DNA of 29,403 nucleotides, taken from contig CAZAYB010000007.1 of NCBI GenBank assembly GCA_964489215.1, forward strand, positions 1 to 29,403, written 5' to 3'. Below, piece by piece: positions 12,904 to 26,500 of this stretch. Numbering within the stretch: the first letter of the stretch is position 1; the number at the start of each line of letters is the position of its first letter. The notes below the pieces were generated by a model. That model ran no database searches and was not told the DNA's origin. It was given only the letters and a program-made list of their open reading frames with translations. The position numbers and the translations under genes were made by a program. Origin of the DNA: an uncultured Pirellulales bacterium (GTDB lineage Bacteria > Planctomycetota > Phycisphaerae > Sedimentisphaerales > Anaerohalosphaeraceae).

Positions 12904-12928
12904 AACATTTGCTAAATTTACAAATGTT
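12904..12928. terminator. Possible weak bidirectional terminator hairpin between convergent units
   Basis: 8-bp stem AACATTTG (12904-12911) / CAAATGTT (12921-12928); AT-rich and lacks a good U-tract. Confidence 0.25.
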
Positions 12929-13210: not shown

Positions 13211-13576
13211 TTAATTGACATGTTTTTTTATTGTTGAAACAAGTTCCATATGGTTAACCGGTTTCTGCATAACACCTGTAAAACCATGTTCCATATGGTC
13301 ATCAGCAGAGCCTATACCGCTTAGAAGAAATACCGGAGTATTATCATCTTCGCTGCGATATTGTTTCATAAACTGTATCCCGGAATCTTCCTCTTCCATC
13401 ATCAGATCGACCATTATAAAGTCCGGCTTACTTTTCCTGCAAAGCTCAAGTCCCTCTTCACAAGAGCCTGCCTCCTTCATTAAAAAACCCGATGCGCTTA
13501 AGATTAGCTCAAGAGCCTCGCGAAAATCCGGGTCATCATCGATTACGATTACTACCTTTTTGCCGTTCTCCATCAC
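13211..13576 (-). CDS. Single-domain response regulator (receiver only)
   Basis: IDDD, phospho-Asp in VDLMM, LSG, QKP; start overlaps the hydF stop (GTGA). Confidence 0.9.
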   Translation of the reverse strand: MMENGKKVVIVIDDDPDFREALELILSASGFLMKEAGSCEEGLELCRKSKPDFIMVDLMMEEEDSGIQFMKQYRSEDDNTPVFLLSGIGSADDHMEHGFTGVMQKPVNHMELVSTIKKHVN

Positions 13577-14820
13577 ATTCTCCTGTTATTTGCAATTCTG
13601 TTTTCCTGGTATACCTGGTGAGCATATCCAAAGGGTTTAAGTGCCCTTTCAAATATCCCAAGTGTATACGCAATTGTCAAGCCATAATTTGTTATAGGTA
13701 CACCCGCCTCTTTTGCAAGCATTATTCTTGAAAGCATTTCACGCCTGTTCCACATGCACGCTCCGCAGTGGATAATAAGTTTATATTTCTGCAAATCCGG
13801 GCTCAAATCATGTCCTCTGCTGTGTTCGAATTCTATCTTCCCGCCTGCATATTGTTTAAGCCATCGCGGTATTTTAACCGTTCCGATGTCGTCTGTTATC
13901 GGATGATGAGTACAGGATTCAGCAATAAGAACCTTGTCACCGCTGGTAAGGTTCTCAATTGCCAAAGCCCCTTTAACCATTTCCGCAAGGTCGGCTTTGT
14001 ATCTTGCAAAAAGAATTGAAAAGCTGGTCATCATAACATCTTCAGGTGTATCAGCTGCAACTTTTAAAAAGGCCTGCGAATCTGTAACAACCAAACCGGG
14101 TTTTTCTTTGAGCAGATTAAATGTTGTGCTAAGTTCACGCTCCTTGCACACCACAGCAACAGAATCAGAATCCAGGATGTCCCGTATCGACTGAACCTGG
14201 GGCAAAATCAATCTGCCCTTCGGTGCCTCCTTGTCTATCGGTACAACCAACACAACCGTCCGGCCCGGCTGTATCAGGTCGCCGAGTATGGAAGGTGTAC
14301 TTGTAAACTCCTTCGGCGTGCTTATGATTATCTGCCTTTTGAGCTCTGCAAATCCTTCTTCTTTTAATGCACTGACGTAACAAAACGGAATGTCTTTGTT
14401 TTTAACCGGTGCAATATTACATTCCTGTTCATCATACAGATCTGTCTTGTTTAGGACCGTAATAACCGGAATACCAAGTTTGTCAAATTCTTCCAGAAGT
14501 TCAGACTCAAAATCACCCCAGTTATTTTTTTCAAAGACCAAAAGCGCCAAGTCGCTCCTTTGAATTACCCCTCTTGTTTTTGCGATCCTTTTCTCCCCCA
14601 ATGCCCCAATGTCATCGATTCCCGCCGTATCCACAAAAAGCACAGGACCAACAGGCAGCAGTTCCATTGGTTTTTCAACAGGGTCGGTCGTCGTGCCGGC
14701 TTGCTCAGAAACTATGGCACTTTGCTGACCTGTTAGTACATTCAAAACAGAACTTTTACCAACGTTTCGTCTGCCGAATATTCCAATATGAAGCCTTAGT
14801 CCCTTAGGTGTTTTTTGCAT
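13573..14820 (-). CDS. hydF: [FeFe]-hydrogenase H-cluster maturation GTPase HydF
   Basis: P-loop GRRNVGKSS, GTTTDPV, DTAG, NKTD; FeS motif CxH..HCGAC; 'TNYG'. Confidence 0.97.
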   Translation of the reverse strand: MQKTPKGLRLHIGIFGRRNVGKSSVLNVLTGQQSAIVSEQAGTTTDPVEKPMELLPVGPVLFVDTAGIDDIGALGEKRIAKTRGVIQRSDLALLVFEKNNWGDFESELLEEFDKLGIPVITVLNKTDLYDEQECNIAPVKNKDIPFCYVSALKEEGFAELKRQIIISTPKEFTSTPSILGDLIQPGRTVVLVVPIDKEAPKGRLILPQVQSIRDILDSDSVAVVCKERELSTTFNLLKEKPGLVVTDSQAFLKVAADTPEDVMMTSFSILFARYKADLAEMVKGALAIENLTSGDKVLIAESCTHHPITDDIGTVKIPRWLKQYAGGKIEFEHSRGHDLSPDLQKYKLIIHCGACMWNRREMLSRIMLAKEAGVPITNYGLTIAYTLGIFERALKPFGYAHQVYQENRIANNRRM

Positions 14821-16237
14821 CTGATTTCCCCCTGTTTACAAAGCCAAGTGAAAGAACCGCCTCACTGCTTGTAAGATGGTCGTATTCCTTTTCGCTGCAC
14901 AACCCCTCTGATGTCAGAATATCCTTTATGGTTCTGTTCTGGTTTGCTGCCTTTTTAGCTGTTTCGGCGCATTTATCATAGCCCAGCTTATTCACAAAAG
15001 CAGTTATAACCGCAGTGGCGTTGTCAACATTTTCTCTGCACCTGTTCTTGTCTGCGCAGATGCCCTCAACAAGACCGCTGCGAAATTTGCTGACTGCATA
15101 TATCAGCTCATCTATCATGCAAAGCAGATTATGAGCGATGCCAGGCAAAAAGGCATTAAGCTCAAGTTGTCCGCTGCACGCTGACAGGGTTATAGCGCTA
15201 TCCCTGCTTATAGCCTGGATAGCTGCCAGACCTGCCATCTCTGCTATCACAGGATTTACCTTGCCCGGCATTATTGACGACCCGGGCTGAACGGCCGGTA
15301 ATCGAATTTCTGCAAACCCTGCCTTTGGTCCGCTCGAAAGCAAACGGATATCGGAAGATATCTTGAAAAGATTAGATGCCAGTGTCTTGAGAAATCCGCT
15401 TACCTCAACTATTTCATCACAGTTTTGAGTTGCGGATATTAAATTTTCCGCCCGGGCCAAAGGAAGATTAGTTATCTGCCGGAGTTTTTCCGATGCGAGA
15501 AATATATATTTTCTGTCTGCGCCTGTCCCCGTACCTACTGCTGTTCCCCCGAGATTTATCACCCTCAATCTTTCCCTGCATTTGGAAAGACGCCACCTGT
15601 CCCTCGAAAACGCTTCTGCATAAGCACCCATCTCCCGCCCAAGGGTGACCAGAACCGCGTCATTGAGCTGAGATCTGCCCAGCTTTACAATGTCCGCAAA
15701 CTCTTTTTCTTTGTGCTGAAACGCATTGACAAGTTCGCTTACAGTCTCCTCAAGTTCGTCGCAGGCAAAGATCGCCGAAACTCTAAGAGCAGTCGGATAA
15801 GTGTCGTTAGTTGACTGATGAAGATTGACATGTCCAAGAGGACTTATTTTTTTATAATCCCCCTTGCTTTCTCCCAGCAGTTCCAGTGCCCGATTGGCGA
15901 TCAGCTCATTGACATACATATTCGTACTTGTACCCGCACCGCCCTGAAGAGCAGCTGGGGCAAATTCACAGGCAAGCTTTCCTGCTGAAAGCTCCCGGCA
16001 AGCCGATACAATAGCCCCGCTTAAATCTTTTGGTATGTAACCAAGTTCACTGTTGGCCTGGCAGCAAGCCTGTTTTACCAGGCCAAACCCCTGCAAAAGT
16101 CTTTGATGAACACGCCCTCCGACAGAACCGAAATTTTCATAAGCACGAAAGCCGCTTATTCCGCACAGAGAGTCTGACCTGATCGACATTTCTCCTAAAG
16201 AATCAACTTCAGTTCTTTCCGGACTTTCGCCGTGCAT
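14804..16237 (-). CDS. aspA: Aspartate ammonia-lyase (fumarase/aspartase superfamily)
   Basis: 'DSLGEM', 'QGGAGTSTNM', 'QSTND.YPT', 'GRSQL.DA', signature 'GSSIMPGKVNP'. ATG 16237 preferred (GGTG 6 nt upstream); GTG 16246 is the alternative. Confidence 0.88.
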   Translation of the reverse strand: MHGESPERTEVDSLGEMSIRSDSLCGISGFRAYENFGSVGGRVHQRLLQGFGLVKQACCQANSELGYIPKDLSGAIVSACRELSAGKLACEFAPAALQGGAGTSTNMYVNELIANRALELLGESKGDYKKISPLGHVNLHQSTNDTYPTALRVSAIFACDELEETVSELVNAFQHKEKEFADIVKLGRSQLNDAVLVTLGREMGAYAEAFSRDRWRLSKCRERLRVINLGGTAVGTGTGADRKYIFLASEKLRQITNLPLARAENLISATQNCDEIVEVSGFLKTLASNLFKISSDIRLLSSGPKAGFAEIRLPAVQPGSSIMPGKVNPVIAEMAGLAAIQAISRDSAITLSACSGQLELNAFLPGIAHNLLCMIDELIYAVSKFRSGLVEGICADKNRCRENVDNATAVITAFVNKLGYDKCAETAKKAANQNRTIKDILTSEGLCSEKEYDHLTSSEAVLSLGFVNRGKSDAKNT

Positions 16238-16331
16238 TAAAATCACCTGTTATTTTAATTTTACATTAACTGTACCCACTGCTTAAGCGCAGAATTATAC
16301 GCAATGGTAAACATGATAAACTATGCATAGC

Positions 16332-16712
16332 TTATATATACTTCTCTATCGCTTTTAACAGAACATTCGGGGTGACCGGCTTTTCGATGAACTCTTTTAC
16401 CGGCAGATTTTCATCATCAGGCTCGAAAGCAAAAGGCAAATTCATCTCCTTACGGATACCGCTTAACATAATAATTGGAATATTGCTTAACTTGCCGTCA
16501 GCTTTTATCCGCTTGGCTGCATCAAAGCCTTCCGTATTAGTCGTCATCATCACATCGAGCAGTATGATGTCAGGCTTATGTTCATGAGCCATTAAAATAC
16601 CTTTCTCTCCGTCAGATGCATTAACTACTTCATAGCCTTTTGCGTCAAGAAGATTGCTGATTGCCTCAACAAACTCCGCATCATCATCGATCATCAAAAC
16701 TTTTTTCGACAC
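16332..16712 (-). CDS. Single-domain response regulator (receiver only)
   Basis: IDDD, phospho-Asp in LDVMM, LSG, EKP; GTG start with GAGG RBS. Confidence 0.92.
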   Translation of the reverse strand: MSKKVLMIDDDAEFVEAISNLLDAKGYEVVNASDGEKGILMAHEHKPDIILLDVMMTTNTEGFDAAKRIKADGKLSNIPIIMLSGIRKEMNLPFAFEPDDENLPVKEFIEKPVTPNVLLKAIEKYI

Positions 16713-16741
16713 TTTCTAATCCTCACTAATTAATTATAAAT

Positions 16742-17806
16742 TTAACATTTTAGCGTATCTTTACATTTAAGCGAATCACCCCTGGAATAATCAACATACC
16801 TGCCTATCGTTCCAGCTGTTTCCTCCAGATTCTGTATCACTTTTTCAGCCTGAACATAACCGAATTTGCCCGGATACAGTTCATAGTTTTGCCTGTATTT
16901 ATCAGGTGTAAAATTGGGCATTATTACATTTGCCCCCGCTTTGAGTGCTTTTTGAGTGGCCTGTTTAGTTCCCAGAACATCAACTGCTGTAGTAGCGGGT
17001 AAATGACAGTTGCCGGTAACTATTCTTGTAACTGCCAGCATCTTTAACGCAAGCCCGATATTGCCGTCCGCAGACTTTGCCATTGCCGTAGCCTCATGCC
17101 GAATAAACACCCCTATGCCTATCATGTCGAACTGCTTGTGATGATAAAACATAGCATCATCTGCAAGCGGTTTTGTGTCATCACCTGCCAGCCCGACAAG
17201 ACTGCCGCAGCCAACCTGATAATTCAGTTCAGATAAAAATCCCAGGCATTCCATTCTTTTTTCATAACTCATGCCCGGATGAAGTTTCCCATAAAGATTC
17301 CTGTCAGTCGTTTCAATTTTGAGCAGATACCGATCAGCCCCTGCCTGTTTCCAGCATTTATAATCTTCCCAGCTTCTTTCACCGACACTTAAAGTAACCG
17401 CCATATCATACTTGCTTTTAATATCATTGATTACCTCTGCCGGAAATTCCGTCGGCATTTCCTTATCTTCACCGCCCTGCAAAACAATCGTCCTTAGTCC
17501 CGCGCTGTATATACGGTCCGCCGCTTCAAGTATCTCCGTTTTGCTCATCCTGTACCGCTTGAGTGATTTATTGTATCTCGATATCCCGCAGTAAGCACAA
17601 CTGTTATTGCAGATGTTCGTAAATTCAACCAGGCCCCGCAGCAGAATCCCGTCTCCGCAATTTGTGCGTCGAATTTTGTCCGCATATTCAAACAAAATAT
17701 CTCGCTCTGAGCCTTCTGTGTCCAGCAGATACCTGACATCATCATAGCCGGGCACTGATGAAGCTTCAAATTGCTCAAAAATAAGTTCTGCTCTGCTTAG
17801 GGCCAT
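16742..17806 (-). CDS. hydE: [FeFe]-hydrogenase maturation radical SAM protein HydE
   Basis: 'RGLVEFTNICNNSCAYCG' CxxxCxxC, 'LQGGED', 'GADRYLLKIET', 'GANVIMPN', 'YELYPGK'. Confidence 0.93.
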   Translation of the reverse strand: MALSRAELIFEQFEASSVPGYDDVRYLLDTEGSERDILFEYADKIRRTNCGDGILLRGLVEFTNICNNSCAYCGISRYNKSLKRYRMSKTEILEAADRIYSAGLRTIVLQGGEDKEMPTEFPAEVINDIKSKYDMAVTLSVGERSWEDYKCWKQAGADRYLLKIETTDRNLYGKLHPGMSYEKRMECLGFLSELNYQVGCGSLVGLAGDDTKPLADDAMFYHHKQFDMIGIGVFIRHEATAMAKSADGNIGLALKMLAVTRIVTGNCHLPATTAVDVLGTKQATQKALKAGANVIMPNFTPDKYRQNYELYPGKFGYVQAEKVIQNLEETAGTIGRYVDYSRGDSLKCKDTLKC

Positions 17807-18307
17807 TTACTTTCCTGCCAGTTCCTGTTTACGAATATCCCTGATAATTTTCACAATTTTTTCCGGGGTAAGATCACCGTAAATTTTCTCGTCTATCATT
17901 ACAACAGGCGCAAGTCCGCACGCACCGAGACATCGTGCCCCTTCAAGACCAAACATTCCGTCTTCTGTTACCTCGCCTACATCTATCTTAAGCTCATCCT
18001 TAAGAGCGTCCATAACCGCCCCTGCCCCTTTAACATAGCAGGCAGTACCCAAACAAACGCTTATCACATGCCTGCCGGGCTTTTCAAGATTGAAATAATG
18101 ATAGAATGTAGCAACTCCCCAGATATGAGCGGTAGGTATATTCATCTGCTCGGAAATAAGGTCCATTACATCACGGGAAAGAAAACCGAAAAGCTGCTGG
18201 GTCTTGTGCAAAACCGCTATCAGATAAGACTCGGTATGCTTTTTATCCTTGACTTGCTCGATATAATTTTTCAATTCTTCAATTTTACTTTGTTCTGTAG
18301 CCTGCAT
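17807..18307 (-). CDS. hydC: NuoE-like [2Fe-2S] subunit of the multimeric [FeFe]-hydrogenase (HydC/HndA)
   Basis: 'LIAVLH..Q...G.L', 'GVATFY..F', 'CLGTACYVKG', 'RCLGACGLAP'. Confidence 0.93.
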   Translation of the reverse strand: MQATEQSKIEELKNYIEQVKDKKHTESYLIAVLHKTQQLFGFLSRDVMDLISEQMNIPTAHIWGVATFYHYFNLEKPGRHVISVCLGTACYVKGAGAVMDALKDELKIDVGEVTEDGMFGLEGARCLGACGLAPVVMIDEKIYGDLTPEKIVKIIRDIRKQELAGK

Positions 18308-18373
18308 TATGTTTCCTTGTCAACTTACAAATTAGAATTTATTGTTTTTCTGAAACTTTTCTGATAAACTCCT

Positions 18374-19885
18374 TTAAAAGTAAAGGTCGCGTTCACCTTT
18401 TTCTGTTCGATTGTAATAATCCATGAAATTCTCAAAAACAGACGGCATCTGCTCCCGGATTTCCGATATCTCTTTTTCTACTACTTTTTCACCTGCCTGC
18501 CGTGTCTGCTCGCTTGCAAAATCATCAAGCCATTCCCGGAAGGTTATCACCGCGTTTAACTTGCAGAACTTTCCTTCTGTACCATCCTTAAGCAGTCCCA
18601 TTATACATTCACCGGTTCTTCCGCATCTGTAACCTGCGGTGCAAAACGACGTAATATACCCGTCATTAGCCAAATCGCCAATTAGCTCATCGAGACTTCT
18701 TGTATCCCCAAGCATAAACTGCTGTTTTTCTCCGTGCTGTCTGCTGTCGTGTTCGGCATAACCGCCTATCCCGATACAGCTGGAGGCATCGGTCTGGGTG
18801 CACCCAAGTTTGATAAATTTATCACGAATATCTTTACTTTCCCTTGCTGTTATAATCATACCGGTATGCGGTATCGCAAGACGAATTACAGTTACAAGCC
18901 TGCGAAAATCATCATCGCTGACATGATTGGTATTATCTGCCGTAAAAGGCGTGTTATGTGCAGGCTCAAGCCTGGGAAATGATACGGTATGCGGGCCGAT
19001 TGAAAATTTCTTCTCCAGATCTAAAGCATGGCTCACAAGTGCCATAACTTCATACCGCCAGTCACCAAGACCGAAAAGGGCTCCTATGCCGACATCGTCA
19101 ACACCTGCTTCCATCGCCCGGTGCATCGAGTAAAGCCGCCAAAGGTAATTGCTTTTGATAGTATTTGAGGGATGAACCATGCTGTAAAGTTCTCTGTCGT
19201 AAGTTTCCTGGAAAACCTGGAAAGTCCCTATGCCGACTTCATGCAGTTTTTTAAGCTCATCAATCTGAAGTGGTGCTGCATTAACATTAACCCTTCGTAT
19301 CGAGCCGTAACCTTTTCTGGTTTTGCACTTTACCTTATATATGGCACTAATTGTCTCTGCCATATAATCAACACCGCTCGATGGATGTTCACCGTAAACT
19401 ACGATCAGCCTTTTATGACCTATATCACCTGCCAGCACTTTAGTTTCTTCGATTACTTCATCAACTTCAAGCCGGCGCCTTCCTGCCTGGTTGTTATCAC
19501 ATCTGAATCCGCAGTAAAGGCAGTTGTTCACGCACAGATTGCTAAGATAAAGCGGAGCGAAAGTTACTATACGGTTATCATAAACCTTTTTCTTGATCTT
19601 TAATGCAGCTTCTTCCATCTCATGCAGCATTTGCGGATCGGTAACATTCAAAAGCGCCGCCGTTTCAAAAAGATCGAGCGTTTCTATACTCATCGCTTTT
19701 GCAATGATATCTCTTACTTGCCTGGGACCCGGCTCTTTTTGCAAAGCCAGCCCGGACCGTATAGCTTCATCATCAATAAAGCTTTTGCCGTCTTTGTCAA
19801 GATACCTGAGAATCTGGTCCTCGATTATCCGCTGTGCCGACCATTTATCGCTGCACCTGATATTATTTTCAGTTATTGTCCCCAT
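18374..19885 (-). CDS. hydG: [FeFe]-hydrogenase maturation radical SAM protein HydG
   Basis: 'FAPLYLSNLCVNNCLYCGF', 'GHKRL....GEHP', 'FQETY', 'GPHTVSFPRL', C-terminal auxiliary Cys motif CX5CX19C. ATG 19885 preferred over GTG 19894. Confidence 0.96.
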   Translation of the reverse strand: MGTITENNIRCSDKWSAQRIIEDQILRYLDKDGKSFIDDEAIRSGLALQKEPGPRQVRDIIAKAMSIETLDLFETAALLNVTDPQMLHEMEEAALKIKKKVYDNRIVTFAPLYLSNLCVNNCLYCGFRCDNNQAGRRRLEVDEVIEETKVLAGDIGHKRLIVVYGEHPSSGVDYMAETISAIYKVKCKTRKGYGSIRRVNVNAAPLQIDELKKLHEVGIGTFQVFQETYDRELYSMVHPSNTIKSNYLWRLYSMHRAMEAGVDDVGIGALFGLGDWRYEVMALVSHALDLEKKFSIGPHTVSFPRLEPAHNTPFTADNTNHVSDDDFRRLVTVIRLAIPHTGMIITARESKDIRDKFIKLGCTQTDASSCIGIGGYAEHDSRQHGEKQQFMLGDTRSLDELIGDLANDGYITSFCTAGYRCGRTGECIMGLLKDGTEGKFCKLNAVITFREWLDDFASEQTRQAGEKVVEKEISEIREQMPSVFENFMDYYNRTEKGERDLYF

Positions 19886-19901
19886 AATATACACTCACAA
19901 T

Positions 19902-21680
19902 TTAAACTGTGGTTTTATCAACCTTGGATATTATACCAGCAGGGGCCTTAGCCTTGTAATGCGTATGCAGAAGTTTATGACTTTTCTCGCTCAACGGCCT
20001 GCCAAGATATTCCTTGTAAAGACGCTGGATGTCAGGGTTCTCATGACTTCTGCGAATCGTCTTGCCCCTGTCGCTGCTGTAAAGAGCCTCTGCTCTTTTA
20101 CGCAGGCTGTCCTCATCAAGCGGAATGGTGTTAGCGGTAGCATAAGGCTGACCTCCGCCGCCTATACATCCGCCGGGACAACCCATTATCTCAACAAAAT
20201 GGTACCTTTCGGGGTCTTCACGCACTATGGTGAGCAGTTTATGGGCGTTACCAAGGCCATGGGCAACCGCCACCCGAATCTCCTGGCCGTCCATAACAAG
20301 ACTGCCCTCTTTTATTCCCTTAAGTCCGCGTATATTTTCAACCTCGATATCTATCAGGGTTTCTCCTGTGTAGAGTTCATAAGCGGTCCTTATAGCCGCT
20401 TCCATTACACCACCGGTAACCCCGAATATCGTTCCCGCTCCGGAGCTCATTCCAAGCGGTGTGTCAGGTTTCTCTGGTTCTATATTGACAAAGTCTATTC
20501 CCGCAGATTTAATCATCCATGCTATCTCACGGGTAGTAACAACAATATCTGTTGCAGCTGTGCCGTTTATCTGAAGCTCCGGCCTGGCTGCCTCGTACTT
20601 CTTTGCGGTACAGCACATGACCGCCGAGCTGATTATCTTTTCAGGATCAACGTTGATCTTTTCCGCAAAGTAAGTCTTAATCAAAGAGCTCGCCATAGAC
20701 ATCGGACTCTTACATGTAGAAATGTTAGGTATAAGGTCAGGATAAAACTGTTCCATGCACTTCATCCAGGCACTGGAACAGGATGTTATCATCGGAAGCG
20801 GTCCTTTGTTCTGGATTCTTTCAAGAAACTCGCTGCCTTCTTCCATTATCGTAAGATCAGCCGCGAACTGAGTATCGAACACATAATCGAAACCAAGTTT
20901 TCTAAGCGATGCGAAAAGCTCACCTTCAAGATTCTTACCCGCCTCGAGATTAAAAGCTTCCCCGATAGCTGCCCTTACAGAAGGCGCAATCTGGGCTACC
21001 GTGATATAATCCTTATCGTTAAGCCTTTCAAAAAGCTCCTGGGTATAACTTTTCTCTACAAAACTCGCCGTCGGACATACATTAATGCACTGACCGCAGG
21101 TAGTGCATACGCTTTCTGAAAACGGCATATTATAAGCGGGCATTACAACTGTCTTAAAGCCTCTGTGTGCCTGGCCAAGAGCAGTTACCTTCTGGACCTC
21201 AGAACACATACGAACGCATCGCCCGCAAAGAATACATTTATCAGGATTACGAACTACAGAAGGAGAAGAAAGATCCTCCTCGTAACTCTTACGCTCACCT
21301 TCAAAATGTCGCTTGCGAATACCCATCGCGTAAGCAAGCCTTTGAAGCTCACAGTTGCCGTCACGCTCACAAGTATGACAGTCCTGTGGATGGTTATCAA
21401 GCAAAAGCTCTACAATATCACGTCTTGCTCTGCGGATTCCAGCGGTATTGGTATGAATCTTCATACCGTCACTGACTGGAAACGCACAACTGGCGACATA
21501 ATTTTTTGAACCTTCAACTTCTACTATGCAAACCCTGCAGGCACCTTCTATGGAAAGCTTGGGATGATAGCAAAGCCGGGGTATATGAAAACCAAGTTTA
21601 TCAGCGGCCTGCATGATTGTCTGGCCGGAATCTACTTTATATTCCTTATTATTGATATGTATCGAAATCTGTTCACTCAT
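19902..21680 (-). CDS. hydA: [FeFe]-hydrogenase catalytic subunit HydA/HndD (group A3-type domain architecture), variant H-cluster motifs
   Basis: [2Fe-2S] 'LCYH..GACRVC..SC', His-ligated 'HPQDCHTC..C', two [4Fe-4S] 'CILCGRC..C' and 'CTTCGQCINVCP', H-domain P1 TSCSSAW, P2 MCCTAKKYE, P3 EIMGCPGGCIGGGGQP, fused small-subunit tail 'SHENP'. Confidence 0.96.
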   Translation of the reverse strand: MSEQISIHINNKEYKVDSGQTIMQAADKLGFHIPRLCYHPKLSIEGACRVCIVEVEGSKNYVASCAFPVSDGMKIHTNTAGIRRARRDIVELLLDNHPQDCHTCERDGNCELQRLAYAMGIRKRHFEGERKSYEEDLSSPSVVRNPDKCILCGRCVRMCSEVQKVTALGQAHRGFKTVVMPAYNMPFSESVCTTCGQCINVCPTASFVEKSYTQELFERLNDKDYITVAQIAPSVRAAIGEAFNLEAGKNLEGELFASLRKLGFDYVFDTQFAADLTIMEEGSEFLERIQNKGPLPMITSCSSAWMKCMEQFYPDLIPNISTCKSPMSMASSLIKTYFAEKINVDPEKIISSAVMCCTAKKYEAARPELQINGTAATDIVVTTREIAWMIKSAGIDFVNIEPEKPDTPLGMSSGAGTIFGVTGGVMEAAIRTAYELYTGETLIDIEVENIRGLKGIKEGSLVMDGQEIRVAVAHGLGNAHKLLTIVREDPERYHFVEIMGCPGGCIGGGGQPYATANTIPLDEDSLRKRAEALYSSDRGKTIRRSHENPDIQRLYKEYLGRPLSEKSHKLLHTHYKAKAPAGIISKVDKTTV

Positions 21681-21690
21681 TTCTCTTTCC

Positions 21691-23481
21691 TTACGATTTA
21701 GTTATGGCATCGAACTTACATGTGTTATAACACATTCCGCACTTAATACATTTATCCTGATCTATCACGTGCATTTCCTTACGCTGACCGCTTATGGCAT
21801 CAACCGGACATACACGCTTACAAGCTCCGCAACCGACACACTTATCTATAATAAGATAAGTAGCAAGCTGCTTACACACACCTGCCCTGCACTTCTTATC
21901 ACGAATATGTTCCTCATATTCCTGGCGGAAGTTCTTGATAGTGCTTAAAACAGGATTGGGAGCACTTTGACCAAGCCCGCAAAGAGAAGACTTGATGATC
22001 ATTTCTCCAAGCCTTTCAAGCTTTTCAATGTCACCTTCCTTGCCTTTACCCTCTGTCAGTCTGGTAAGTATCTCAAGCATACGTTTGGTACCCTCCCGGC
22101 ATGGAGTGCACTTTCCGCAGGATTCATTCTGGGTAAACTCAAGGAAAAACTTGGCAATATCAACCATACATGAATCCTCGTCTATGACTATCATACCGCC
22201 GGAACCCATTATTGAACCTGCCTGTGCTAAATTTTCATAATCGATAGGCGTATCGATATATTCCTCAGGCAGACAGCCTCCGGAAGGTCCGCCCGTCTGG
22301 ATAGCCTTTAATTTCTTGCCTTCCAGCAGACCGCCGCCTATATCATATACTATTTCTCGAAGGGTAGTGCCCATGGGAACCTCGATAAGACCGGTGTTAA
22401 CCACCTTGCCTGCCAGTGCGAAAACCTTAGTGCCCTTGCTCTTGGCGGTTCCGACAGTACTGAACCATTTGCCGCCGTCCAGAATAACCACAGGGATATT
22501 GGACCATGTCTCGACATTGTTTATCAAAGTAGGCTTGCCGAACAAACCCTTCACCGAAGGATAAGGAGGCCTGGGCCTTGGCATACCCCTTGCCCCCTCT
22601 ATCGAATGAATCAAAGCCGTTTCTTCTCCGCATACAAAAGCACCTGCACCAAGACGAATCTCGAGATCGAAATTAAAATCACTGCCGAGAATATTTTCTC
22701 CAAGGAAACCGTTGTCGCGGGCATCTTTAATCGCCTTTTCTATTCGGCGAATGGCAAGCGGATATTCCGCACGAATATAAACTATACCTTTGCTTGCACC
22801 GATAGCATATCCGCCTATTATCATCCCTTCCACTATCGTATGAGGATCACCCTCAATAGCACTTCTGTCCATAAAAGCACCCGGGTCACCTTCGTCTGCG
22901 TTGCATATTACATATTTTTCTTCGGATTCTTCCGCAGCGGTAAACTGCCATTTAAGACCGGTCGGAAAACCTGCTCCCCCTCGGCCCCTCAGACCAGATT
23001 CCTTTACCATATTGACTACATCATCACTGCTCATATCCGTCAAAACCTTTGCAAGGGCCTCATAACCCCTGACAGAAAGATAATCGTCTATGCTCTCAGG
23101 GTCGATTATCCCGCAGTTACGTAAAGCTATCCGCATCTGCTTCTTAAAGAAATCACTGTCACCGAAAATCCTGAAGAACCTGTTAAACAGATGATCCTCC
23201 TGGACTATCAGCCGTGATACTTCCCTGCCGTTGACAAGATGTTCAGAAACGATTTCCTTCATATCATCCACACCGACATTGCCGTATATCGTATAACCGG
23301 GATTGACCACGACTACTGGCCCCTTGTCACACATACCAAGACAGCCGCTGAGACTGATCTTTACCTTGTCGTCAAGCGAATGTTCCTTAACCTGCTCGTC
23401 AAGAACTTTCCTCAGGTCATGGGTACCTTTTTGTATACAGCCGGTACCATCACACATTGTTACTATCAATTCATCCGACAC
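21691..23481 (-). CDS. hydB: NuoF-like FMN/NADH-binding subunit HydB/HndC
   Basis: N-terminal [2Fe-2S] 'CDGTGC..GCLGMC', 'GLRGRGGAGFPTG', 'NADEGDPGAFMDR', 'GAGAFVCGEETAL', 'GGPSGGC', 'ESCGKCTPCREG', C-terminal 2x[4Fe-4S]; GTG start. Confidence 0.96.
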   Translation of the reverse strand: MSDELIVTMCDGTGCIQKGTHDLRKVLDEQVKEHSLDDKVKISLSGCLGMCDKGPVVVVNPGYTIYGNVGVDDMKEIVSEHLVNGREVSRLIVQEDHLFNRFFRIFGDSDFFKKQMRIALRNCGIIDPESIDDYLSVRGYEALAKVLTDMSSDDVVNMVKESGLRGRGGAGFPTGLKWQFTAAEESEEKYVICNADEGDPGAFMDRSAIEGDPHTIVEGMIIGGYAIGASKGIVYIRAEYPLAIRRIEKAIKDARDNGFLGENILGSDFNFDLEIRLGAGAFVCGEETALIHSIEGARGMPRPRPPYPSVKGLFGKPTLINNVETWSNIPVVILDGGKWFSTVGTAKSKGTKVFALAGKVVNTGLIEVPMGTTLREIVYDIGGGLLEGKKLKAIQTGGPSGGCLPEEYIDTPIDYENLAQAGSIMGSGGMIVIDEDSCMVDIAKFFLEFTQNESCGKCTPCREGTKRMLEILTRLTEGKGKEGDIEKLERLGEMIIKSSLCGLGQSAPNPVLSTIKNFRQEYEEHIRDKKCRAGVCKQLATYLIIDKCVGCGACKRVCPVDAISGQRKEMHVIDQDKCIKCGMCYNTCKFDAITKS

Positions 23482-23532
23482 TTTCTGTTTCCCTTCTGTA
23501 AAAACTGAGTAAAATTCAACTCCGCTGATTTT

Positions 23533-23889
23533 TTATATCACCCATTCTTTTATTACTTCACCTTTTTTAATGTGCCTTTCAATTATTTCCTGGGCACGCT
23601 CAACCGTAACCTTGCCGTACCTGACAGGATTTTTGCCCGTCTCGACAACTTCCACAGTAGGCTCAAGATTACATCTGCCCGCACAGCCTTTCTGACTTAA
23701 ATAAACATCCGTCAGGCCGCCTGTACCTACCGCGTTCTTGAAAACTTCCATTATCTCCTTAGACCCAGCCGCAATTTCGCAGGTGGCCATTCCAACAAAA
23801 ACCCTCTTCGTCGAAAGATAACCCTTGCCTATAATCCTGCTAACTGCCTCGGCTCGTTTCTTCTTGACTATTTCAAGCGGTGTCAGCAT
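23533..23889 (-). CDS. hydD: Thioredoxin-like [2Fe-2S] ferredoxin subunit HydD/HndB
   Basis: 'VFVGMATCEIAAG', 'GCAGRCNLEPTVEV', 'Y..V....A.EI...H'. Confidence 0.88.
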   Translation of the reverse strand: MLTPLEIVKKKRAEAVSRIIGKGYLSTKRVFVGMATCEIAAGSKEIMEVFKNAVGTGGLTDVYLSQKGCAGRCNLEPTVEVVETGKNPVRYGKVTVERAQEIIERHIKKGEVIKEWVI

Positions 23890-25723
23890 TTTTAATACCC
23901 CTTTCTATCTGAAATAAAAATGAATTACCTTTTTCCCTCGGACATGCCCATATCTCTCCGCCATGAGCCTGAACGAGATTCTTCGTTATATAAAGCCCAA
24001 GCCCGTTGCCTTTGACTTTCTTTGTGTCGCTTGTCTTTAATCTTGAAAATTTCTTGAAAAGCTTCTTGCTTTGCTCAGGGTCAATGGGAACACCGTCATT
24101 ATAAACCTCTATTTCTATCTTCCCGTCTAAAAATCGGCCGTTTATAATAACCCTGCCGTGTTCATTACCATATTTTATCGCATTGCTGATAAGATTGTTC
24201 GCAACTATCTGCATAAGATCAGAATCAGCAACCGCTTCCATATCATCCTCAAGATTGTTCTCGATTGTAATATCCTTCTTTACAGCAAGTGTCTCCAAAG
24301 AGCTGACGGTAATATCAAAAACATCCTTTTTAAGAGATATCTCACTTTTATGTACCTTAAGCTGACCCCTTTCAATTCTGCCCAGGTTCAAAAACTTCTT
24401 AACCGTTGCCGCAAGATAATCAAGGTTCCTTGCCACAGAATCGATAGCTTTTCGCTGCTTGAAGTTCACCATACCCAAAAAACCGTCGCGGACAGCATAA
24501 GCGTTCATAATCGCAGAGCCCAGTATGCCGTTAAGCTCATGGGCAACAAAACTTATCAGTTCAACATAACTTTGATTTGAGGTCTCAAGCTGCTCATTAG
24601 ATATCTTAAGGCTTTGCTCACGTTCCTTTATCCGCTCTGCCATGTGATTAAAAGAACTGGCAAGCCGTTTAAGTTCGTTTATCTTAAAATCATCACGGAC
24701 CTTGTGCTCAAGATCACCCTGTGAATACTTCCTGGTGCCGTTGAGCATCTCTATAATTGGCCTGGTAATCGTACCGGTAAGGACCATCGAAAGTACCGCT
24801 GCCAAAACTGTGGCACCTGCAACTAAAACCGAAAATATTAAAAAAATATTCCTGGCCATATCGTTAAAAGGCTTTTCCAGAATACCCACATAAAGGATCC
24901 CGATAACCTCTCCGTGTATGTCGCGTATGGGTTCATAAGCCGTTTTGTACCAGTCGTTTACCACAAAGGCTCTGTCCAGCCACATCTGGCCCTGCTCGGC
25001 GACTTTTTCATAAACTTCCGCTGAAATTCTCGTCCCCACTGCCCGTTTGTTCTTGTCGGTAAGGACATTTGTAGCTATTCTCACATCATCCTGAAATATC
25101 GTCACCGTACCGTAAGGCTTGCCGTAATACATTTCATTGCCAAAAACCAGCGTACGGATCCTGTCGACCAGAGAATGGTCCTTATTGATTATCCTGCCGC
25201 CGTATAACACCCTTACAACTTTACCGTTCTTAACTTCCGGTATAGCGTACTCCTTGCTCATAGCACTTCTGAGAACCGCTTTATTAGTGGGAATTGCCCT
25301 GGGCGTATATTTAATTTCTATCTGAACCCTTGAGCTGAGATCATTATTCATCGACTCAAGTTCCTGTGCTTCAATTATCCTCGTCCCGCCCACCGCTTCT
25401 TTGCTGACAACCGCCTTTTGGACAATATCACTTTTGCTGCTTTGGGCCTTATCGGGACCTATTACATATAAATAATCAAGCTGGGTTTTTTCCCGAAGAA
25501 CATCAATATCACCAGCGCCGGGCAATATTCTCATTATCTGACCAATTCGGTCTATCTCAGTCCGATATACTGTTCGCGCAGCCTTAAGATTGCGAGCGAC
25601 AGTCTCCTCAGCCCGTTCAATAATATCTTTTTTAATGATATAATACCCAAGGCCCGCGATTGACAGACTCATCACAAGGATTACCACTAAAAAATAAAGC
25701 GTTATTCGTTGTCTTATAGACAT
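23873..25723 (-). CDS. Membrane sensor histidine kinase (TM - Cache - TM - HAMP - HisKA - HATPase_c)
   Basis: Two TMs; Cache-type 'TIFQDDVRIATNV..RAVGT..YEPIRD..G.VIGILYVG'; HAMP 'ITRPI..NELKRLASSFNHM'; H-box AHELNGIL; N-box NLISNAIKY; G2 GNGLGL. Confidence 0.92.
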   Translation of the reverse strand: MSIRQRITLYFLVVILVMSLSIAGLGYYIIKKDIIERAEETVARNLKAARTVYRTEIDRIGQIMRILPGAGDIDVLREKTQLDYLYVIGPDKAQSSKSDIVQKAVVSKEAVGGTRIIEAQELESMNNDLSSRVQIEIKYTPRAIPTNKAVLRSAMSKEYAIPEVKNGKVVRVLYGGRIINKDHSLVDRIRTLVFGNEMYYGKPYGTVTIFQDDVRIATNVLTDKNKRAVGTRISAEVYEKVAEQGQMWLDRAFVVNDWYKTAYEPIRDIHGEVIGILYVGILEKPFNDMARNIFLIFSVLVAGATVLAAVLSMVLTGTITRPIIEMLNGTRKYSQGDLEHKVRDDFKINELKRLASSFNHMAERIKEREQSLKISNEQLETSNQSYVELISFVAHELNGILGSAIMNAYAVRDGFLGMVNFKQRKAIDSVARNLDYLAATVKKFLNLGRIERGQLKVHKSEISLKKDVFDITVSSLETLAVKKDITIENNLEDDMEAVADSDLMQIVANNLISNAIKYGNEHGRVIINGRFLDGKIEIEVYNDGVPIDPEQSKKLFKKFSRLKTSDTKKVKGNGLGLYITKNLVQAHGGEIWACPREKGNSFLFQIERGIKNADTA

Positions 25724-26353
25724 TTAGCTTTCCCTGGCCTTTTCAGTTGCATTCACAAAATATATCAGATTTTCAAGCTCTGCCTCGACGTTGATATTGT
25801 TTACTACAACATCCCAATCATTTCTAAGCCGAATCGGAGCAAAATTCATAAATCCTTTAACTCCGGAATTAACCATTATTTCAAAAACCTGCTGGGCTGC
25901 GTAATCCGGAACACTTATTATGCCCAGTGAAATTCCATTTTCCTTTATAAACTCACCAAGTTTTTCAAGTCCGTAAACTGGAATAGGCACTTCTTTGCTG
26001 AATTTACCAGGGTCAATGTCAAAACCTGCAACTATTCGCATACCGCTTTTCTCAAAACCATGATAATTCATCAAAGCCTTGCCTATATTTCCTACCCCAA
26101 CCAGCACAAAATCCTTAACCTCATCTTTGCCGAGAACTTTGTTGAGCTGTTCTATCAGTTCATCAATCTTGTAACCCCCGCGTCGATTGCCTGTTATTCC
26201 AAAAAGAGAAAAGTCTTTTCTAACCTGTGAAGCGGTAACCCCCGCTGCATCTGCAAGGTTATCGGAAAAAACACGAACAAAGTTAAGGCTTTTTAGCCGA
26301 TTTACTGCATTTTTGTACTTTGAAAGCCGATTTATCACACTTTTGTTAGGCAT
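25724..26353 (-). CDS. rex: Redox-sensing (NADH/NAD+) transcriptional repressor Rex
   Basis: 'RLSKY', 'S..LA...GVTASQVRKDFS..G..G..GGY' wHTH; Rossmann GVGNIG..L.NY; 'AGFD'; 'NFAP'. Confidence 0.95.
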   Translation of the reverse strand: MPNKSVINRLSKYKNAVNRLKSLNFVRVFSDNLADAAGVTASQVRKDFSLFGITGNRRGGYKIDELIEQLNKVLGKDEVKDFVLVGVGNIGKALMNYHGFEKSGMRIVAGFDIDPGKFSKEVPIPVYGLEKLGEFIKENGISLGIISVPDYAAQQVFEIMVNSGVKGFMNFAPIRLRNDWDVVVNNINVEAELENLIYFVNATEKARES

Positions 26354-26446: not shown

Positions 26447-26475
26447 AATATACTAAGATGCAATGAGCTTGTCAA
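26447..26475 (-). promoter_or_regulatory. sigma70 promoter of the rex-hyd operon
   Basis: Minus strand TTGACA (26475-26470), 17-nt spacer, TATATT (26452-26447). Confidence 0.7.
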
Positions 26476-26482
26476 GGTTTAT

Positions 26483-26500
26483 TTGTGAATTTTTTCACAT
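26483..26500. promoter_or_regulatory. Rex operator
   Basis: TTGTGAA-TTTT-TTCACAT, 13/14 match to the known Rex consensus TTGTGAA-N4-TTCACAA, located upstream of rex. Confidence 0.8.

What the first reader, a model, noticed from the sequence alone, without database searches (positions are those of the whole stretch)
13211..25723. Two-component system inside the hyd operon has no DNA-binding output: two receiver-only proteins sit among the maturase genes
Seen: one Cache kinase (23873-25723) and two single-domain receivers (16332-16712, 13211-13576), both with intact DD/D/S/K residues and shared features (DxMM-x4-G, LSGI). The first has a ~10-aa insertion after beta4 (IRKEMNLPFAFEPDDENLP). One follows hydE; the other overlaps the hydF stop codon. 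Inference: phosphorylation may control H-cluster assembly or hydrogenase activity post-translationally (CheY-like binding to HydF/HydE/HydABCD), or the receivers act as phosphate sinks or relays. I know of no established phospho-control of [FeFe] maturation.
Basis: partly seen in the sequence, partly recalled or inferred. Interest (0 to 1): 0.65.

Follow-up and report, generated by a model that had tools for sequence, protein, structure and literature searches.

The report
Hydrogenase operon with receiver-only signalling proteins
A hydrogen-producing enzyme operon carries a sensor kinase and two small phosphate-receiver proteins with no DNA-binding part; both receivers belong to families found almost only inside hydrogenase operons, and one family is often fused to a hydrogenase-maturing protease, so phosphorylation may control the enzyme after transcription.

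Summary
Window 26353-12927 (minus strand) is one 13-gene operon: rex, an sCache_3_3 histidine kinase, hydD-like, hydB, hydA, hydG, hydC, hydE, REC-A, aspA, hydF, REC-B and a TM1266-like gene. A near-consensus Rex operator sits at its promoter. Both receivers are single-domain and keep every phospho-acceptor residue.

They belong to two different conserved families.
- REC-A (58-70% identity, Phycisphaerae/Sedimentisphaerales-type MAGs) has a hyd gene directly upstream in 71 of 71 informative metagenome loci. Rex and the same Cache kinase open the operon in 18 of 20 loci with enough upstream sequence.
- REC-B belongs to a family spread over more than 12 phyla. In 60 of 80 loci it follows the HoxW maturation protease at the end of [NiFe] Hox operons, in 4 it follows HydF, and in 4 it precedes an FHL-like cluster. 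At least 120 protein clusters are HoxW::receiver fusions.

No hydrogenase-linked DNA-binding response regulator was found in about 160 loci.

The main rivals are a phosphate sink or relay, control of enzyme activity, and action through Rex. I found no description of these receiver families in the searched literature.

The parts
26447..26500 (-). Promoter-like site (-35 TTGACA at 26475, -10 TATATT ending at 26447) with an adjacent Rex operator, TTGTGAATTTTTTCACAT, at 26483-26500
   Evidence: The operator has 1 mismatch to TTGTGAAnnnnTTCACAA. The promoter is the best sigma-70-like match in the region, 11 of 12. Boxes with 2 or fewer mismatches lie about 140 nt upstream of rex in most of the 8 orthologous loci that have one.
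25724..26353 (-). rex: redox-sensing transcriptional repressor, first gene of the operon
   Evidence: NF003996, 230 bits against a cutoff of 138. Its stop abuts the kinase start. It is conserved in front of the kinase in 18 of 20 loci.
23873..25723 (-). Membrane sensor histidine kinase: TM, periplasmic sCache_3_3, TM, HAMP, HisKA, HATPase_c
   Evidence: Pfam hits. The H-box histidine and the sensor domain are conserved in orthologues. Orthologues at 48-58% identity open REC-A-containing operons.
23533..23889 (-). 118-aa thioredoxin-like [2Fe-2S] ferredoxin (HydD-like); overlaps the kinase 3' end by 17 nt
   Evidence: Weak PF01257 hit, 20.6 bits. It is the most conserved protein of the operon, 76-84% identity.
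21691..23481 (-). hydB: NuoF-like flavoprotein subunit
   Evidence: Complex1_51K 165.6 bits, NADH_4Fe-4S 122.8 bits.
19902..21680 (-). hydA: NADH-dependent [FeFe] hydrogenase catalytic subunit
   Evidence: NF040763 'group A6', 843 bits against a cutoff of 765. Fe_hyd_lg_C 297 bits.
18374..19894 (-). hydG: radical SAM maturase
   Evidence: TIGR03955, 447 bits.
17807..18307 (-). hydC: NuoE-like [2Fe-2S] subunit
   Evidence: PF01257, 167.6 bits.
16742..17806 (-). hydE: radical SAM maturase
   Evidence: TIGR03956, 319 bits.
16332..16712 (-). REC-A: stand-alone receiver whose helix alpha4 is replaced by a near-invariant loop (RKEMNLPFGFEPDxxWLPV in the family)
   Evidence: PF00072, 69.8 bits. 568 homologues, the top 120 at 61-70% identity apart from the window's own entry and one 96% relative. 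The loop is nearly invariant. The AF2 model has pLDDT 88 with alpha4 reduced to residues 87-90. In 71 of 71 informative loci it lies inside a hyd operon. Exact metatranscriptome contigs cover 16115-16518.
14804..16246 (-). aspA-like aspartate ammonia-lyase; overlaps the hydF start by 17 nt
   Evidence: NF008909, 559.8 bits against a cutoff of 510. AspA next to hydF is a known accessory that supplies ammonium for the dithiomethylamine ligand (PMC11736057).
13573..14820 (-). hydF: H-cluster scaffold GTPase
   Evidence: TIGR03918, 562 bits.
13211..13576 (-). REC-B: stand-alone receiver whose start overlaps the hydF stop; member of the pan-phylum family of receivers at the end of hydrogenase operons
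   Evidence: PF00072, 68.9 bits. Overlap shown. Family alignment A1. Of the 80 nearest genome loci, 60 lie after HoxW, 4 after HydF and 4 before an FHL-like cluster. HoxW::REC fusions.
12927..13193 (-). 88-aa CPF_0552/TM1266-like protein, last gene of the operon
   Evidence: NF052672, 98.8 bits against a cutoff of 85; TIGR03959 and PF21699 are weak. The same gene lies a few hundred bases downstream of the REC-B-type receiver in Hox loci L015 and L033.

Best explanation
The region is a Rex-controlled operon for an NADH-linked HydABC(D)-type [FeFe] hydrogenase and its maturation set (HydE, HydG, HydF, AspA), probably from an anaerobic Phycisphaerae-like planctomycete of marine sediment. A hydrogenase-dedicated phospho-signalling module is built into it.

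Shown:
- Transcription has a DNA-binding input, Rex, which reports the NADH/NAD+ ratio.
- The module consists of a periplasmic sCache_3_3 sensor kinase and two phosphorylatable receivers without output domains.
- REC-A co-occurs with that kinase inside hyd operons.
- REC-B belongs to a receiver family that ends NAD-linked hydrogenase operons across many phyla and is often fused to the HoxW maturation protease.

Inferred:
- The Cache kinase senses an extracytoplasmic small molecule and phosphorylates REC-A, its lineage-specific partner. It probably also phosphorylates REC-B.
- The receivers are themselves the outputs and act by protein-protein contact, not on DNA.
- REC-B, translationally coupled to HydF here, most likely gates the last maturation step. 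That step is delivery of the 2Fe subcluster by HydF in this operon, and C-terminal processing by HoxW in [NiFe] operons. The logic resembles CheB, where a receiver controls an attached enzyme.
- REC-A uses its invariant alpha4 loop to bind a conserved operon product (HydABC(D), HydE or Rex).

Together, Rex would set transcription from the internal redox state, and the kinase and receivers would set how much active enzyme is made from an external cue.
For: - Operon anatomy: 13 genes with gaps of 85 nt or less, several overlaps, and no terminator-like site between genes.
- Rex operator and promoter.
- Intact, 100% conserved phospho-acceptor residues in both families.
- REC-A census: 71 of 71 informative loci inside hyd operons, and 18 of 20 with Rex plus the Cache kinase. 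Minimal loci contain only this kinase and REC-A, so REC-A must be the kinase's local partner there.
- The REC-A alpha4 loop is nearly invariant at 58-70% overall identity, and AF2 replaces the helix with a loop. By general knowledge of receivers, that face mediates output.
- REC-B census: 68 of 79 informative nearest relatives are directly adjacent to hydrogenase genes in more than 12 phyla.
- Fusions: TIGR00072 protease plus receiver in one ORF in 5 loci, and in at least 120 distinct 90%-identity clusters at 55-78% identity.
- The AspA-HydF-REC-B order recurs in L030 and L039.
- The same kinase types recur beside REC-B-type receivers elsewhere. sCache_3_3 kinases occur in L031, L053, L070 and L079. 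HydS-like hydrogenase::kinase fusions and REC-HisKA-HATPase hybrids occur beside both [FeFe] and [NiFe] operons.
- No hydrogenase-linked DNA-binding response regulator in any locus examined.
Against: - No biochemical evidence: phosphotransfer and binding partners are inferred only from gene order and fusion.
- HydF and HoxW are unrelated folds, so one receiver family contacting both is not the simplest assumption. HoxW and HydF are also simply the last genes of their operons.
- Two loci (L070, L079) place the receiver after a NuoE-NuoF protein with no hydrogenase or maturase nearby. Aminicenantes place it upstream of an FHL-like cluster.
- The AF2 model of the fusion gives pTM 0.58 with a disordered linker, so no fixed interface is predicted.
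- Most Hox loci carry no kinase next to the receiver.
- The window's REC-B lineage has lost 6 residues of the alpha4 region that its relatives keep.
Confidence: 0.4

Rival explanations
1. Phosphate sink or relay. The receivers have no target of their own. Because they are co-expressed with the hydrogenase, they drain or pass on phosphoryl groups from the Cache kinase (or from HydS-type kinases in other lineages). The real output would be a regulator encoded elsewhere, giving feedback on hydrogenase expression, as with FixT-type or Spo0F-type single-domain receivers.
For: - It needs no common binding partner. It therefore explains in one stroke why REC-B-type receivers end operons of three hydrogenase classes and follow unrelated genes: HoxW, HydF and NuoEF.
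- REC-HisKA-HATPase hybrids in related loci point to multi-step phosphotransfer.
- Most Hox loci have no adjacent kinase, so distant partners exist anyway.
- Feedback by a single-domain receiver is an established mechanism (PMC7078487).
Against: - No Hpt protein was noticed, and no hydrogenase-linked DNA-binding response regulator turned up, in about 160 loci. This contrasts with classical H2-sensing systems, whose regulator HoxA controls the hydrogenase promoters directly (PMC10073562).
- Minimal REC-A loci hold one kinase and one receiver, which leaves nothing to be a sink for.
- A long-lived, diversified fusion to an enzyme and an invariant surface loop in REC-A are not expected of a passive sink.
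Confidence: 0.25
2. Control of enzyme activity rather than maturation. The phosphorylated receivers bind the assembled hydrogenase, most plausibly its NuoE/NuoF-like NADH module (HydB/HydC here, HoxF in Hox enzymes), and tune electron flow.
For: - A NuoE/NuoF-type flavoprotein is the one component shared by the Hox loci, the [FeFe] loci and the hydrogenase-less loci L070 and L079, where the receiver directly follows a NuoE-NuoF fusion.
- REC-A stays with hydDBA-hydC even when hydG and hydF are elsewhere.
Against: - The Aminicenantes FHL-like clusters show no NuoF-type gene among their called genes.
- The conserved fusion partner is the protease HoxW, not HoxF.
- REC-B here is coupled to hydF, at the far end of the operon from hydB.
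Confidence: 0.17
3. Output through Rex. REC-A in its phosphorylated state binds Rex as an anti-repressor or co-repressor, so the two-component system does reach DNA, indirectly.
For: rex, the kinase and REC-A travel together in 18 of 20 loci. The rex stop abuts the kinase start. The Rex operator at the promoter makes the operon autoregulated. Rex also lies beside REC-HK genes in Hox loci L034 and L047.
Against: The evidence is co-occurrence only. Rex commonly controls fermentative hydrogenase operons without any kinase (Rex regulon work cited in PMC4676874). REC-B-type loci mostly lack rex.
Confidence: 0.1
4. Incidental neighbours: the receivers are ordinary orphan CheY-like genes that happen to lie in this operon.
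For: Single-domain receivers are very common. A profile of the REC-B family matches over a million proteins at E<=0.001.
Against: 71 of 71 and 68 of 79 context-blind relatives are hydrogenase-adjacent. Add the translational coupling and the fusions.
Confidence: 0.02

Closest known systems
HoxBC-HoxJ-HoxA (Cupriavidus) and HupUV-HupT-HupR H2-sensing two-component control of [NiFe] hydrogenases
   Same: [quoted passage not shown]
   Different: There the sensor is a regulatory [NiFe] hydrogenase and the receiver protein HoxA is a DNA-binding transcriptional activator. Here the sensor is a periplasmic Cache domain, the receivers have no output domain, and transcription is handled by Rex.
Putative sensory [FeFe] hydrogenases linked to kinases (HydDB group C1; HydS-type, group C/D)
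   Same: Signalling genes embedded in or next to operons for bifurcating-type [FeFe] hydrogenases, with the output unknown (PMC5037454, PMC8163306). Related loci L010, L030 and L039 combine a HydS-like::HisKA-HATPase fusion with a REC-B-type receiver after HydF.
   Different: The window has no sensory hydrogenase; a Cache kinase takes that place. The papers I searched do not describe the stand-alone receivers or their link to maturation genes.
CheB-type receiver-controlled enzymes
   Same: The HoxW::REC fusions pair a phosphorylatable receiver with a hydrolytic enzyme in one chain. REC-B after HydF looks like the split version.
   Different: The receiver is C-terminal, the enzyme is a hydrogenase maturation endopeptidase, and no inhibitory interface is predicted (pTM 0.58). 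In the window the receiver is a separate protein.
Single-domain response regulators acting by protein contact or as sinks and relays (CheY, DivK, CpdR, Spo0F, FixT)
   Same: Same fold and catalytic residues, and no output domain. The nearest solved structures are RR468, DivK, FrzS and the receiver domains of RpaA, MtrA, PhoP and PhoB.
   Different: No closer than about 30% identity to any of them. REC-A has alpha4 replaced by an invariant loop. Both families carry DxMM(E/T)-x4-G instead of the usual DxxMPxxxG loop. Their genomic context is exclusively hydrogenase-related.
Rex-regulated fermentative hydrogenase operons
   Same: A Rex gene and a near-consensus operator at the promoter of an NADH-linked hydrogenase operon.
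   Different: rex is here co-operonic with, and abuts, a sensor kinase, and the operon also encodes receivers.

Membership tests
Two-component receiver domain (CheY-like, PF00072) | Profile match over the full domain | tested here: met
   REC-A 69.8 bits and REC-B 68.9 bits against a cutoff of 30.2.
Two-component receiver domain (CheY-like, PF00072) | Acidic pair, phospho-acceptor Asp, Ser/Thr and Lys all present | tested here: met
   REC-A D9/D10, D53, S84, K111. REC-B D13/D14, D57, S86, K105. Conserved in the families.
Two-component receiver domain (CheY-like, PF00072) | (beta-alpha)5 fold | tested here: met
   REC-A AF2 model has pLDDT 88. Foldseek TM-scores are 0.73-0.85 to receiver structures, with alpha4 shortened. 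REC-B was not modelled.
Two-component receiver domain (CheY-like, PF00072) | Phosphorylated by a histidine kinase | not testable with these tools
   Only co-occurrence with the Cache kinase is available.
Stand-alone (single-domain) response regulators | No output domain on the same polypeptide | tested here: met
   121 and 126 aa with no further Pfam or NCBIfam domain. Stop codons shown.
Classical H2-sensing hydrogenase regulation (HoxJ/HoxA, HupT/HupR) | Regulatory hydrogenase as the sensor | tested here: not met
   No second hydrogenase gene in the window. The sensor is an sCache_3_3 domain.
Classical H2-sensing hydrogenase regulation (HoxJ/HoxA, HupT/HupR) | NtrC-type DNA-binding response regulator as the output | tested here: not met
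   Both receivers lack AAA+ and HTH domains.
Kinase-linked sensory [FeFe] hydrogenase systems (HydDB group C1) | H-domain protein fused or adjacent to a histidine kinase | tested here: not met
   Absent from the window. Present in related loci L010, L030 and L039 and near Hox loci L043, L067 and L072.
Rex regulon member | Rex protein plus a TTGTGAAnnnnTTCACAA-type operator at the promoter | tested here: met
   NF003996, 230 bits. Operator with 1 mismatch beside the best promoter match. Boxes also found upstream of rex in orthologous loci. Binding itself was not tested.
HydABC-type NADH-linked (bifurcating-type) [FeFe] hydrogenase with HydEFG maturation | HydA with NuoG-like N-terminus, NuoF-like HydB, NuoE-like HydC, plus HydE, HydF and HydG | tested here: met
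   NF040763 843 bits; Complex1_51K; PF01257; TIGR03956, TIGR03918 and TIGR03955 all above their cutoffs. Electron bifurcation itself is not testable here.
Hydrogenase-operon-terminal receiver family (defined here; REC-B type) | Sequence signature IDDDPD ... PDxxxVDLMMExxDxG ... LS ... FQKP, and a higher score on the family profile than on other receiver profiles | tested here: met
   The window REC-B scores 168 bits on a family HMM built without it, against 62 bits on the REC-A HMM. CheY, Spo0F and DivK score 38-57 bits.
Hydrogenase-operon-terminal receiver family (defined here; REC-B type) | Last or near-last gene of a hydrogenase operon, directly after a maturation factor | tested here: met
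   Overlaps the hydF stop, and only the 88-aa TM1266-like gene follows. Family census.
Phosphate-sink or feedback receivers (FixT-like) | Inhibits or drains its kinase; induced by the pathway it controls | not testable with these tools
   Co-expression with the operon is compatible with this.

The most novel reading that the evidence does not exclude
A phosphorylation checkpoint on hydrogenase maturation. One receiver family (REC-B type) would gate the final activation step of NAD-linked hydrogenases of both metal classes. It would act fused to or beside the HoxW endopeptidase in [NiFe] enzymes and coupled to HydF in [FeFe] enzymes, under kinases that sense H2 (HydS::kinase fusions) or an external ligand (sCache_3_3). 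This would be a regulatory layer not described for any hydrogenase in the literature I searched.
Probability: 0.25. Interest if true: 0.85.

Novelty: new variant of a known kind. Interest (0 to 1): 0.62.

Why it matters
Hydrogenase regulation is known at the level of transcription (Rex, HoxJ/HoxA, FNR-type regulators). Maturation is treated as an unregulated assembly line.

Two receiver families that occur almost only in hydrogenase operons, one of them repeatedly fused to a maturation protease, make a concrete proposal testable: cells may decide after translation how much active hydrogenase to make. The test can use existing in vitro HydE/F/G and HoxW assays.

The result also gives a downstream partner to the kinase-linked 'sensory' [FeFe] hydrogenases, whose signalling output has been an open question since they were classified (PMC5037454, PMC8163306).

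Practically, such switches matter for engineering H2 production. They also matter for reading the metabolism of uncultured anaerobes (Planctomycetota, Hydrogenedentota, Aminicenantes, Spirochaetota and others) in which these operons are common.

Tried and rejected
- A profile search of 1.84 billion representative proteins with the REC-B family alignment, to find fusion partners. It was useless: proteins with 3-5 receiver domains top the list because scores add up.
- A DNA-binding partner next to REC-A. In a subset of loci a 226-264-aa OmpR-type regulator, a 591-aa kinase and 571-aa Na/Pi-cotransporter-PhoU-like proteins lie 370-680 nt downstream. By sequence these look like a PhoB/PhoR phosphate module with its own spacing. 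They are absent from the window and from most loci, so I rejected them as the output.
- The divergent SBP_bac_3-PAS kinase (26698-29199) as a second input. It is absent upstream of rex in the orthologous loci that extend that far. It is not excluded, but nothing supports it.
- The HDOD kinase plus HTH_17-REC pair at 1077-3900. It lies 10 kb away, forms its own pair, and has no link to hyd genes.
- Sequence and fold searches of REC-A against solved structures. They returned only generic receivers, none with the alpha4 loop.
- An AF2 model of a HoxW::REC fusion, to look for a fixed interface. Both domains are confident but pTM is 0.58 and the linker is disordered, so it says nothing about mechanism.
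- Long 'receiver ORFs' in high-GC loci (L013, L041, L045, L056, L069, L081, L031, L011). These are wrong-frame artefacts, not fusions.
- Literature searches for a receiver after HoxW or HydF. Nothing specific came up. One 2025 neighbourhood survey of [NiFe] hydrogenases lists a 'Response_reg' cluster in a table; no passage outside that table was found (PMC12727194).

Full report
**What is in the window**

The minus strand from 26353 to 12927 carries 13 tightly packed genes:
- rex (26353-25724; NF003996, 230 bits)
- a 616-aa membrane kinase (25723-23873) with sCache_3_3 at 115 bits, HAMP, a weak HisKA and HATPase_c
- a 118-aa thioredoxin-like ferredoxin (23889-23533)
- hydB (23481-21691)
- hydA (21680-19902; NF040763 'NADH-dependent [FeFe] hydrogenase, group A6', 843 bits)
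- hydG (19894-18374)
- hydC (18307-17807)
- hydE (17806-16742)
- REC-A (16712-16332)
- an aspartate ammonia-lyase (16246-14804)
- hydF (14820-13573)
- REC-B (13576-13211)
- an 88-aa CPF_0552/TM1266-like protein (13193-12927)

Gaps between genes are 85 nt or less, and several genes overlap: rex/kinase abut, kinase/hydD overlap by 17 nt, hydC/hydE abut, aspA/hydF overlap by 17 nt, and the hydF stop overlaps the REC-B start. No terminator-like site lies between genes.

Upstream of rex there is a Rex operator with one mismatch to the consensus (TTGTGAATTTTTTCACAT, 26483-26500). It sits next to the best sigma-70-like promoter of the region. Boxes with two or fewer mismatches lie upstream of rex in 8 orthologous loci, mostly about 140 nt away.

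A marine metatranscriptome holds exact contigs for 16115-16331 and 16326-16518. Together they span the REC-A 3' end, the intergenic gap and the aspA 5' end. This is weak evidence of co-transcription, because DNA carry-over cannot be excluded.

Both receivers are single PF00072 domains at 69.8 and 68.9 bits, with no other domain and all catalytic residues present. The kinase keeps its H-box histidine.

There are two corrections. The shared loop is DxMM-x5-G, not x4. The 'insertion' in REC-A is about 5 residues relative to canonical receivers, and the rest of the difference is a 6-residue deletion peculiar to the window's REC-B lineage. The two receivers are 30% identical.

**REC-A is a lineage-specific, hyd-operon receiver paired with the Cache kinase**

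A protein search found 568 homologues. Apart from the window's own entry and one 96% relative, the top 120 are 126-134 aa and 61-70% identical. Where they carry a name, it is a Phycisphaerae or Sedimentisphaerales MAG.

I scanned the metagenome collection with patterns derived only from sequence and kept the 80 best loci. In 71 of 71 loci with at least 250 nt upstream, a hyd gene ends within 450 nt upstream of the receiver: hydE in 64, hydC in 4, hydA in 2 and hydG in 1. In 18 of 20 loci with at least 9 kb upstream, rex plus an orthologue of the same sCache kinase (at least 45% identity) open the operon. One exception has the kinase at the contig edge.

The receiver stays when hydG and hydF are encoded elsewhere (L003). 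It is therefore tied to the operon and the kinase, not to hydE or to the maturases as a group.

Its alpha4 region is almost invariant across the family (R87, E89, M90, L92, P93, F94, F96, E97, P98, D99, L103, P104). AlphaFold (pLDDT 88) turns helix alpha4 into a 4-residue turn plus a loop. Solved structures offer only generic neighbours such as RR468, DivK, FrzS and the RpaA and MtrA receiver domains.

In some loci a PhoB/PhoR/Na-Pi-PhoU-like set lies downstream. I regard this as an unrelated neighbour.

**REC-B belongs to a different and much wider family**

Its protein homologues are few (43). Beyond three close relatives they drop to about 46% identity in Omnitrophica, Aminicenantes and others. 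Three context look-ups all landed on hydrogenases, but not on [FeFe] ones. Two showed HoxF-HoxU-HoxY-HoxH-(164 aa)-receiver. One showed a receiver in front of an FdhH / group-4 [NiFe] cluster.

A genome scan with the family alignment, again using sequence patterns only, confirmed 510 relatives by tblastn. I kept the 80 best, which come from more than 12 phyla. Of these:
- 60 have HoxH or the 164-aa gene directly upstream
- 4 have HydF directly upstream (Planctomycetota; two with AspA-HydF-receiver as in the window)
- 4 precede the FHL-like cluster
- 1 is uninformative
- 11 have no adjacent hydrogenase gene

Among those 11, L070 and L079 place the receiver directly after a NuoE-NuoF fusion protein. 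There an sCache_3_3 kinase and a REC-HisKA-HATPase hybrid run convergently.

The 164-aa gene is the hydrogenase maturation protease (TIGR00072, 63-70 bits against a cutoff of 47). The receiver is usually the last gene of the operon.

**Fusions**

In five loci the protease and the receiver are one reading frame of 275-286 aa. A protein search with one such fusion returned 120 listed clusters. All have 87-100% coverage, 241-296 aa and 55-78% identity. Sources annotate them simply as 'hydrogenase maturation protease', in Nitrospiraceae, Hydrogenedentota and Brocadiia among others. The fusion is therefore old, diversified and maintained.

The receiver half keeps DDD, the phospho-Asp, Ser and Lys as invariant columns. 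AlphaFold folds both halves confidently, but pTM is 0.58 and the linker is disordered, so no fixed interface can be claimed.

**A recurring signalling toolkit**

Related [FeFe] loci (L010, L030, L039) carry, between hydA and hydE:
- a HydS-like H-domain fused to HisKA-HATPase (671-674 aa)
- a REC-HisKA-HATPase hybrid
- a third stand-alone receiver

A REC-B-type receiver then follows HydF. The same HydS-like H-domain gene also lies beside [NiFe] Hox operons that end in the receiver (L043, L067, L072). Orthologues of the REC-kinase hybrid lie beside Hox loci L034, L047, L053 and L067. sCache_3_3 kinases recur in L031, L053, L070 and L079.

On a REC-B family profile, REC-A-family members score about 100 bits and the third receiver type 95-98 bits. 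The three hydrogenase-linked receiver types are thus related to one another.

**How it most likely works**

Shown:
- the operon structure
- the Rex gene and a near-consensus operator
- intact receivers
- the two family-level associations
- the fusions
- the absence of a hydrogenase-linked DNA-binding response regulator

Inferred:
- The Cache kinase phosphorylates REC-A, its constant companion, and perhaps REC-B.
- The receivers act by protein contact.
- REC-B acts on the terminal maturation step: HydF here and HoxW elsewhere.

I put this at 0.4. The rivals are:
- a co-expressed phosphate sink or relay (0.25), which explains the variety of neighbours without needing a common partner
- control of the assembled enzyme through the NuoE/NuoF-like module, the component shared by nearly all contexts (0.17)
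- action through Rex (0.1)

Pure coincidence is excluded by the censuses.

**Comparison with what is known**

The classical hydrogenase two-component systems use a regulatory hydrogenase and a DNA-binding regulator (PMC10073562). Neither feature is present here.

HydDB lists kinase-linked [FeFe] group C1 enzymes as putative sensors of undetermined role (PMC5037454). A kinase-like ATPase beside a sensory hydrogenase and a bifurcating operon has been noted, with signal transduction left open (PMC8163306).

The aspA-hydF pairing is explained: AspA supplies ammonium for the dithiomethylamine ligand. That paper's hydF neighbourhood analysis does not mention regulators (PMC11736057).

A 2025 neighbourhood survey of [NiFe] hydrogenases tabulates a 'Response_reg' cluster. 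My term search found no passage about it outside that table (PMC12727194).

Within the library I could search, I found nothing on receivers that follow or fuse to HoxW, or that follow HydF.

**Verdict**

It is a two-component system of a known kind with an unusual arrangement that appears undescribed in the searched literature: hydrogenase-dedicated, output-less receivers, one family of which is linked by gene fusion to a maturation enzyme. The mechanism remains inference. I score interest at 0.62.

Noticed in passing
L036:3813-4646, L051:9527-10378, L052:1562-2422, L060:2056-2883, L071:1192-2031; proteins P0313-P0432: [NiFe] hydrogenase maturation protease (TIGR00072) fused in one ORF to a REC-B-type receiver. 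At least 120 distinct protein clusters, annotated by their sources only as 'hydrogenase maturation protease'.
   Followed up: yes
L039:1670-3694, L010:2655-4670, L030 (about 1297-3300); also L043, L067, L072: Fer4 / [FeFe]-hydrogenase H-domain / FeS / HisKA / HATPase fusion proteins (a putative H2-sensing kinase). They occur inside [FeFe] hyd operons and, divergently, beside [NiFe] Hox operons that end in the receiver. They are usually accompanied by a REC-HisKA-HATPase hybrid.
   Followed up: partly
window 14804-16246: An aspartate ammonia-lyase gene lies between REC-A and hydF and overlaps the hydF start. This matches the published AspA-HydF association, in which AspA supplies ammonium for the dithiomethylamine ligand (PMC11736057). 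The same order occurs in L030, L039 and L099.
   Followed up: yes
window 12927-13193; L015:10766-11017; L033:10548-10802; L099:5242-5502: An 88-aa CPF_0552/TM1266-like protein closes the operon. The same small gene lies a few hundred bases downstream of the REC-B-type receiver in two Phycisphaerae [NiFe] Hox loci, so receiver and TM1266-like gene travel together across hydrogenase classes. Its function is unknown.
   Followed up: partly
window 26483-26500 and 26447-26475: A near-consensus Rex operator sits next to a strong promoter-like site upstream of rex, so the operon is probably autoregulated by NADH/NAD+. Similar boxes occur upstream of rex in 8 orthologous loci.
   Followed up: yes
window 23533-23889: The 118-aa thioredoxin-like ferredoxin that overlaps the kinase 3' end is the most conserved protein of the operon (76-84% identity, against 73-81% for HydA). 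It has only three cysteines in the expected cluster-binding region.
   Followed up: no
window 26698-29199: A divergently transcribed SBP_bac_3-PAS-PAS-HisKA-HATPase kinase has no receiver of its own in the window. It is absent upstream of rex in the orthologous loci that extend that far.
   Followed up: partly
window 1077-3302 and 3334-3900: A separate two-component pair: an HDOD-HisKA-HATPase kinase and a 188-aa regulator with an N-terminal HTH_17 domain and a C-terminal receiver, which is the reverse of the usual domain order.
   Followed up: no
window 13211-13576 versus alignment A1: The window's REC-B and its two closest relatives (87% and 61% identity) lack 6 residues of the alpha4 region that all other family members keep.
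   Followed up: partly
L094:2025-2417 and 5135-5521: One hyd cluster carries two REC-A paralogues, one after hydA (55% identity to REC-A) and one after hydE (63%).
   Followed up: no
L070:8233-10354, and L079 likewise: In two Spirochaetota loci a REC-B-type receiver directly follows a NuoE-NuoF fusion flavoprotein with no hydrogenase gene nearby. An sCache_3_3 kinase and a REC-kinase hybrid run convergently.
   Followed up: partly
L103, L107, L126, L131, L138, L140, L144, L160, L162 (370-680 nt after REC-A): PhoB-like regulator, PhoR-like kinase and Na/Pi-cotransporter-PhoU-like genes lie downstream of REC-A in one sublineage. I judged them an unrelated neighbouring phosphate module.
   Followed up: yes
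window 16115-16518: A marine metatranscriptome run (X11) contains two exact contigs that together cover the REC-A 3' end, the 85-nt gap and the aspA 5' end. Marine sediment metagenomes also hold the locus.
   Followed up: partly
window 10828-12890: Convergent with the operon end lies a VTT-domain protein, a family-2 glycosyltransferase and a DUF2064 protein. No link to the hydrogenase is apparent.
   Followed up: no
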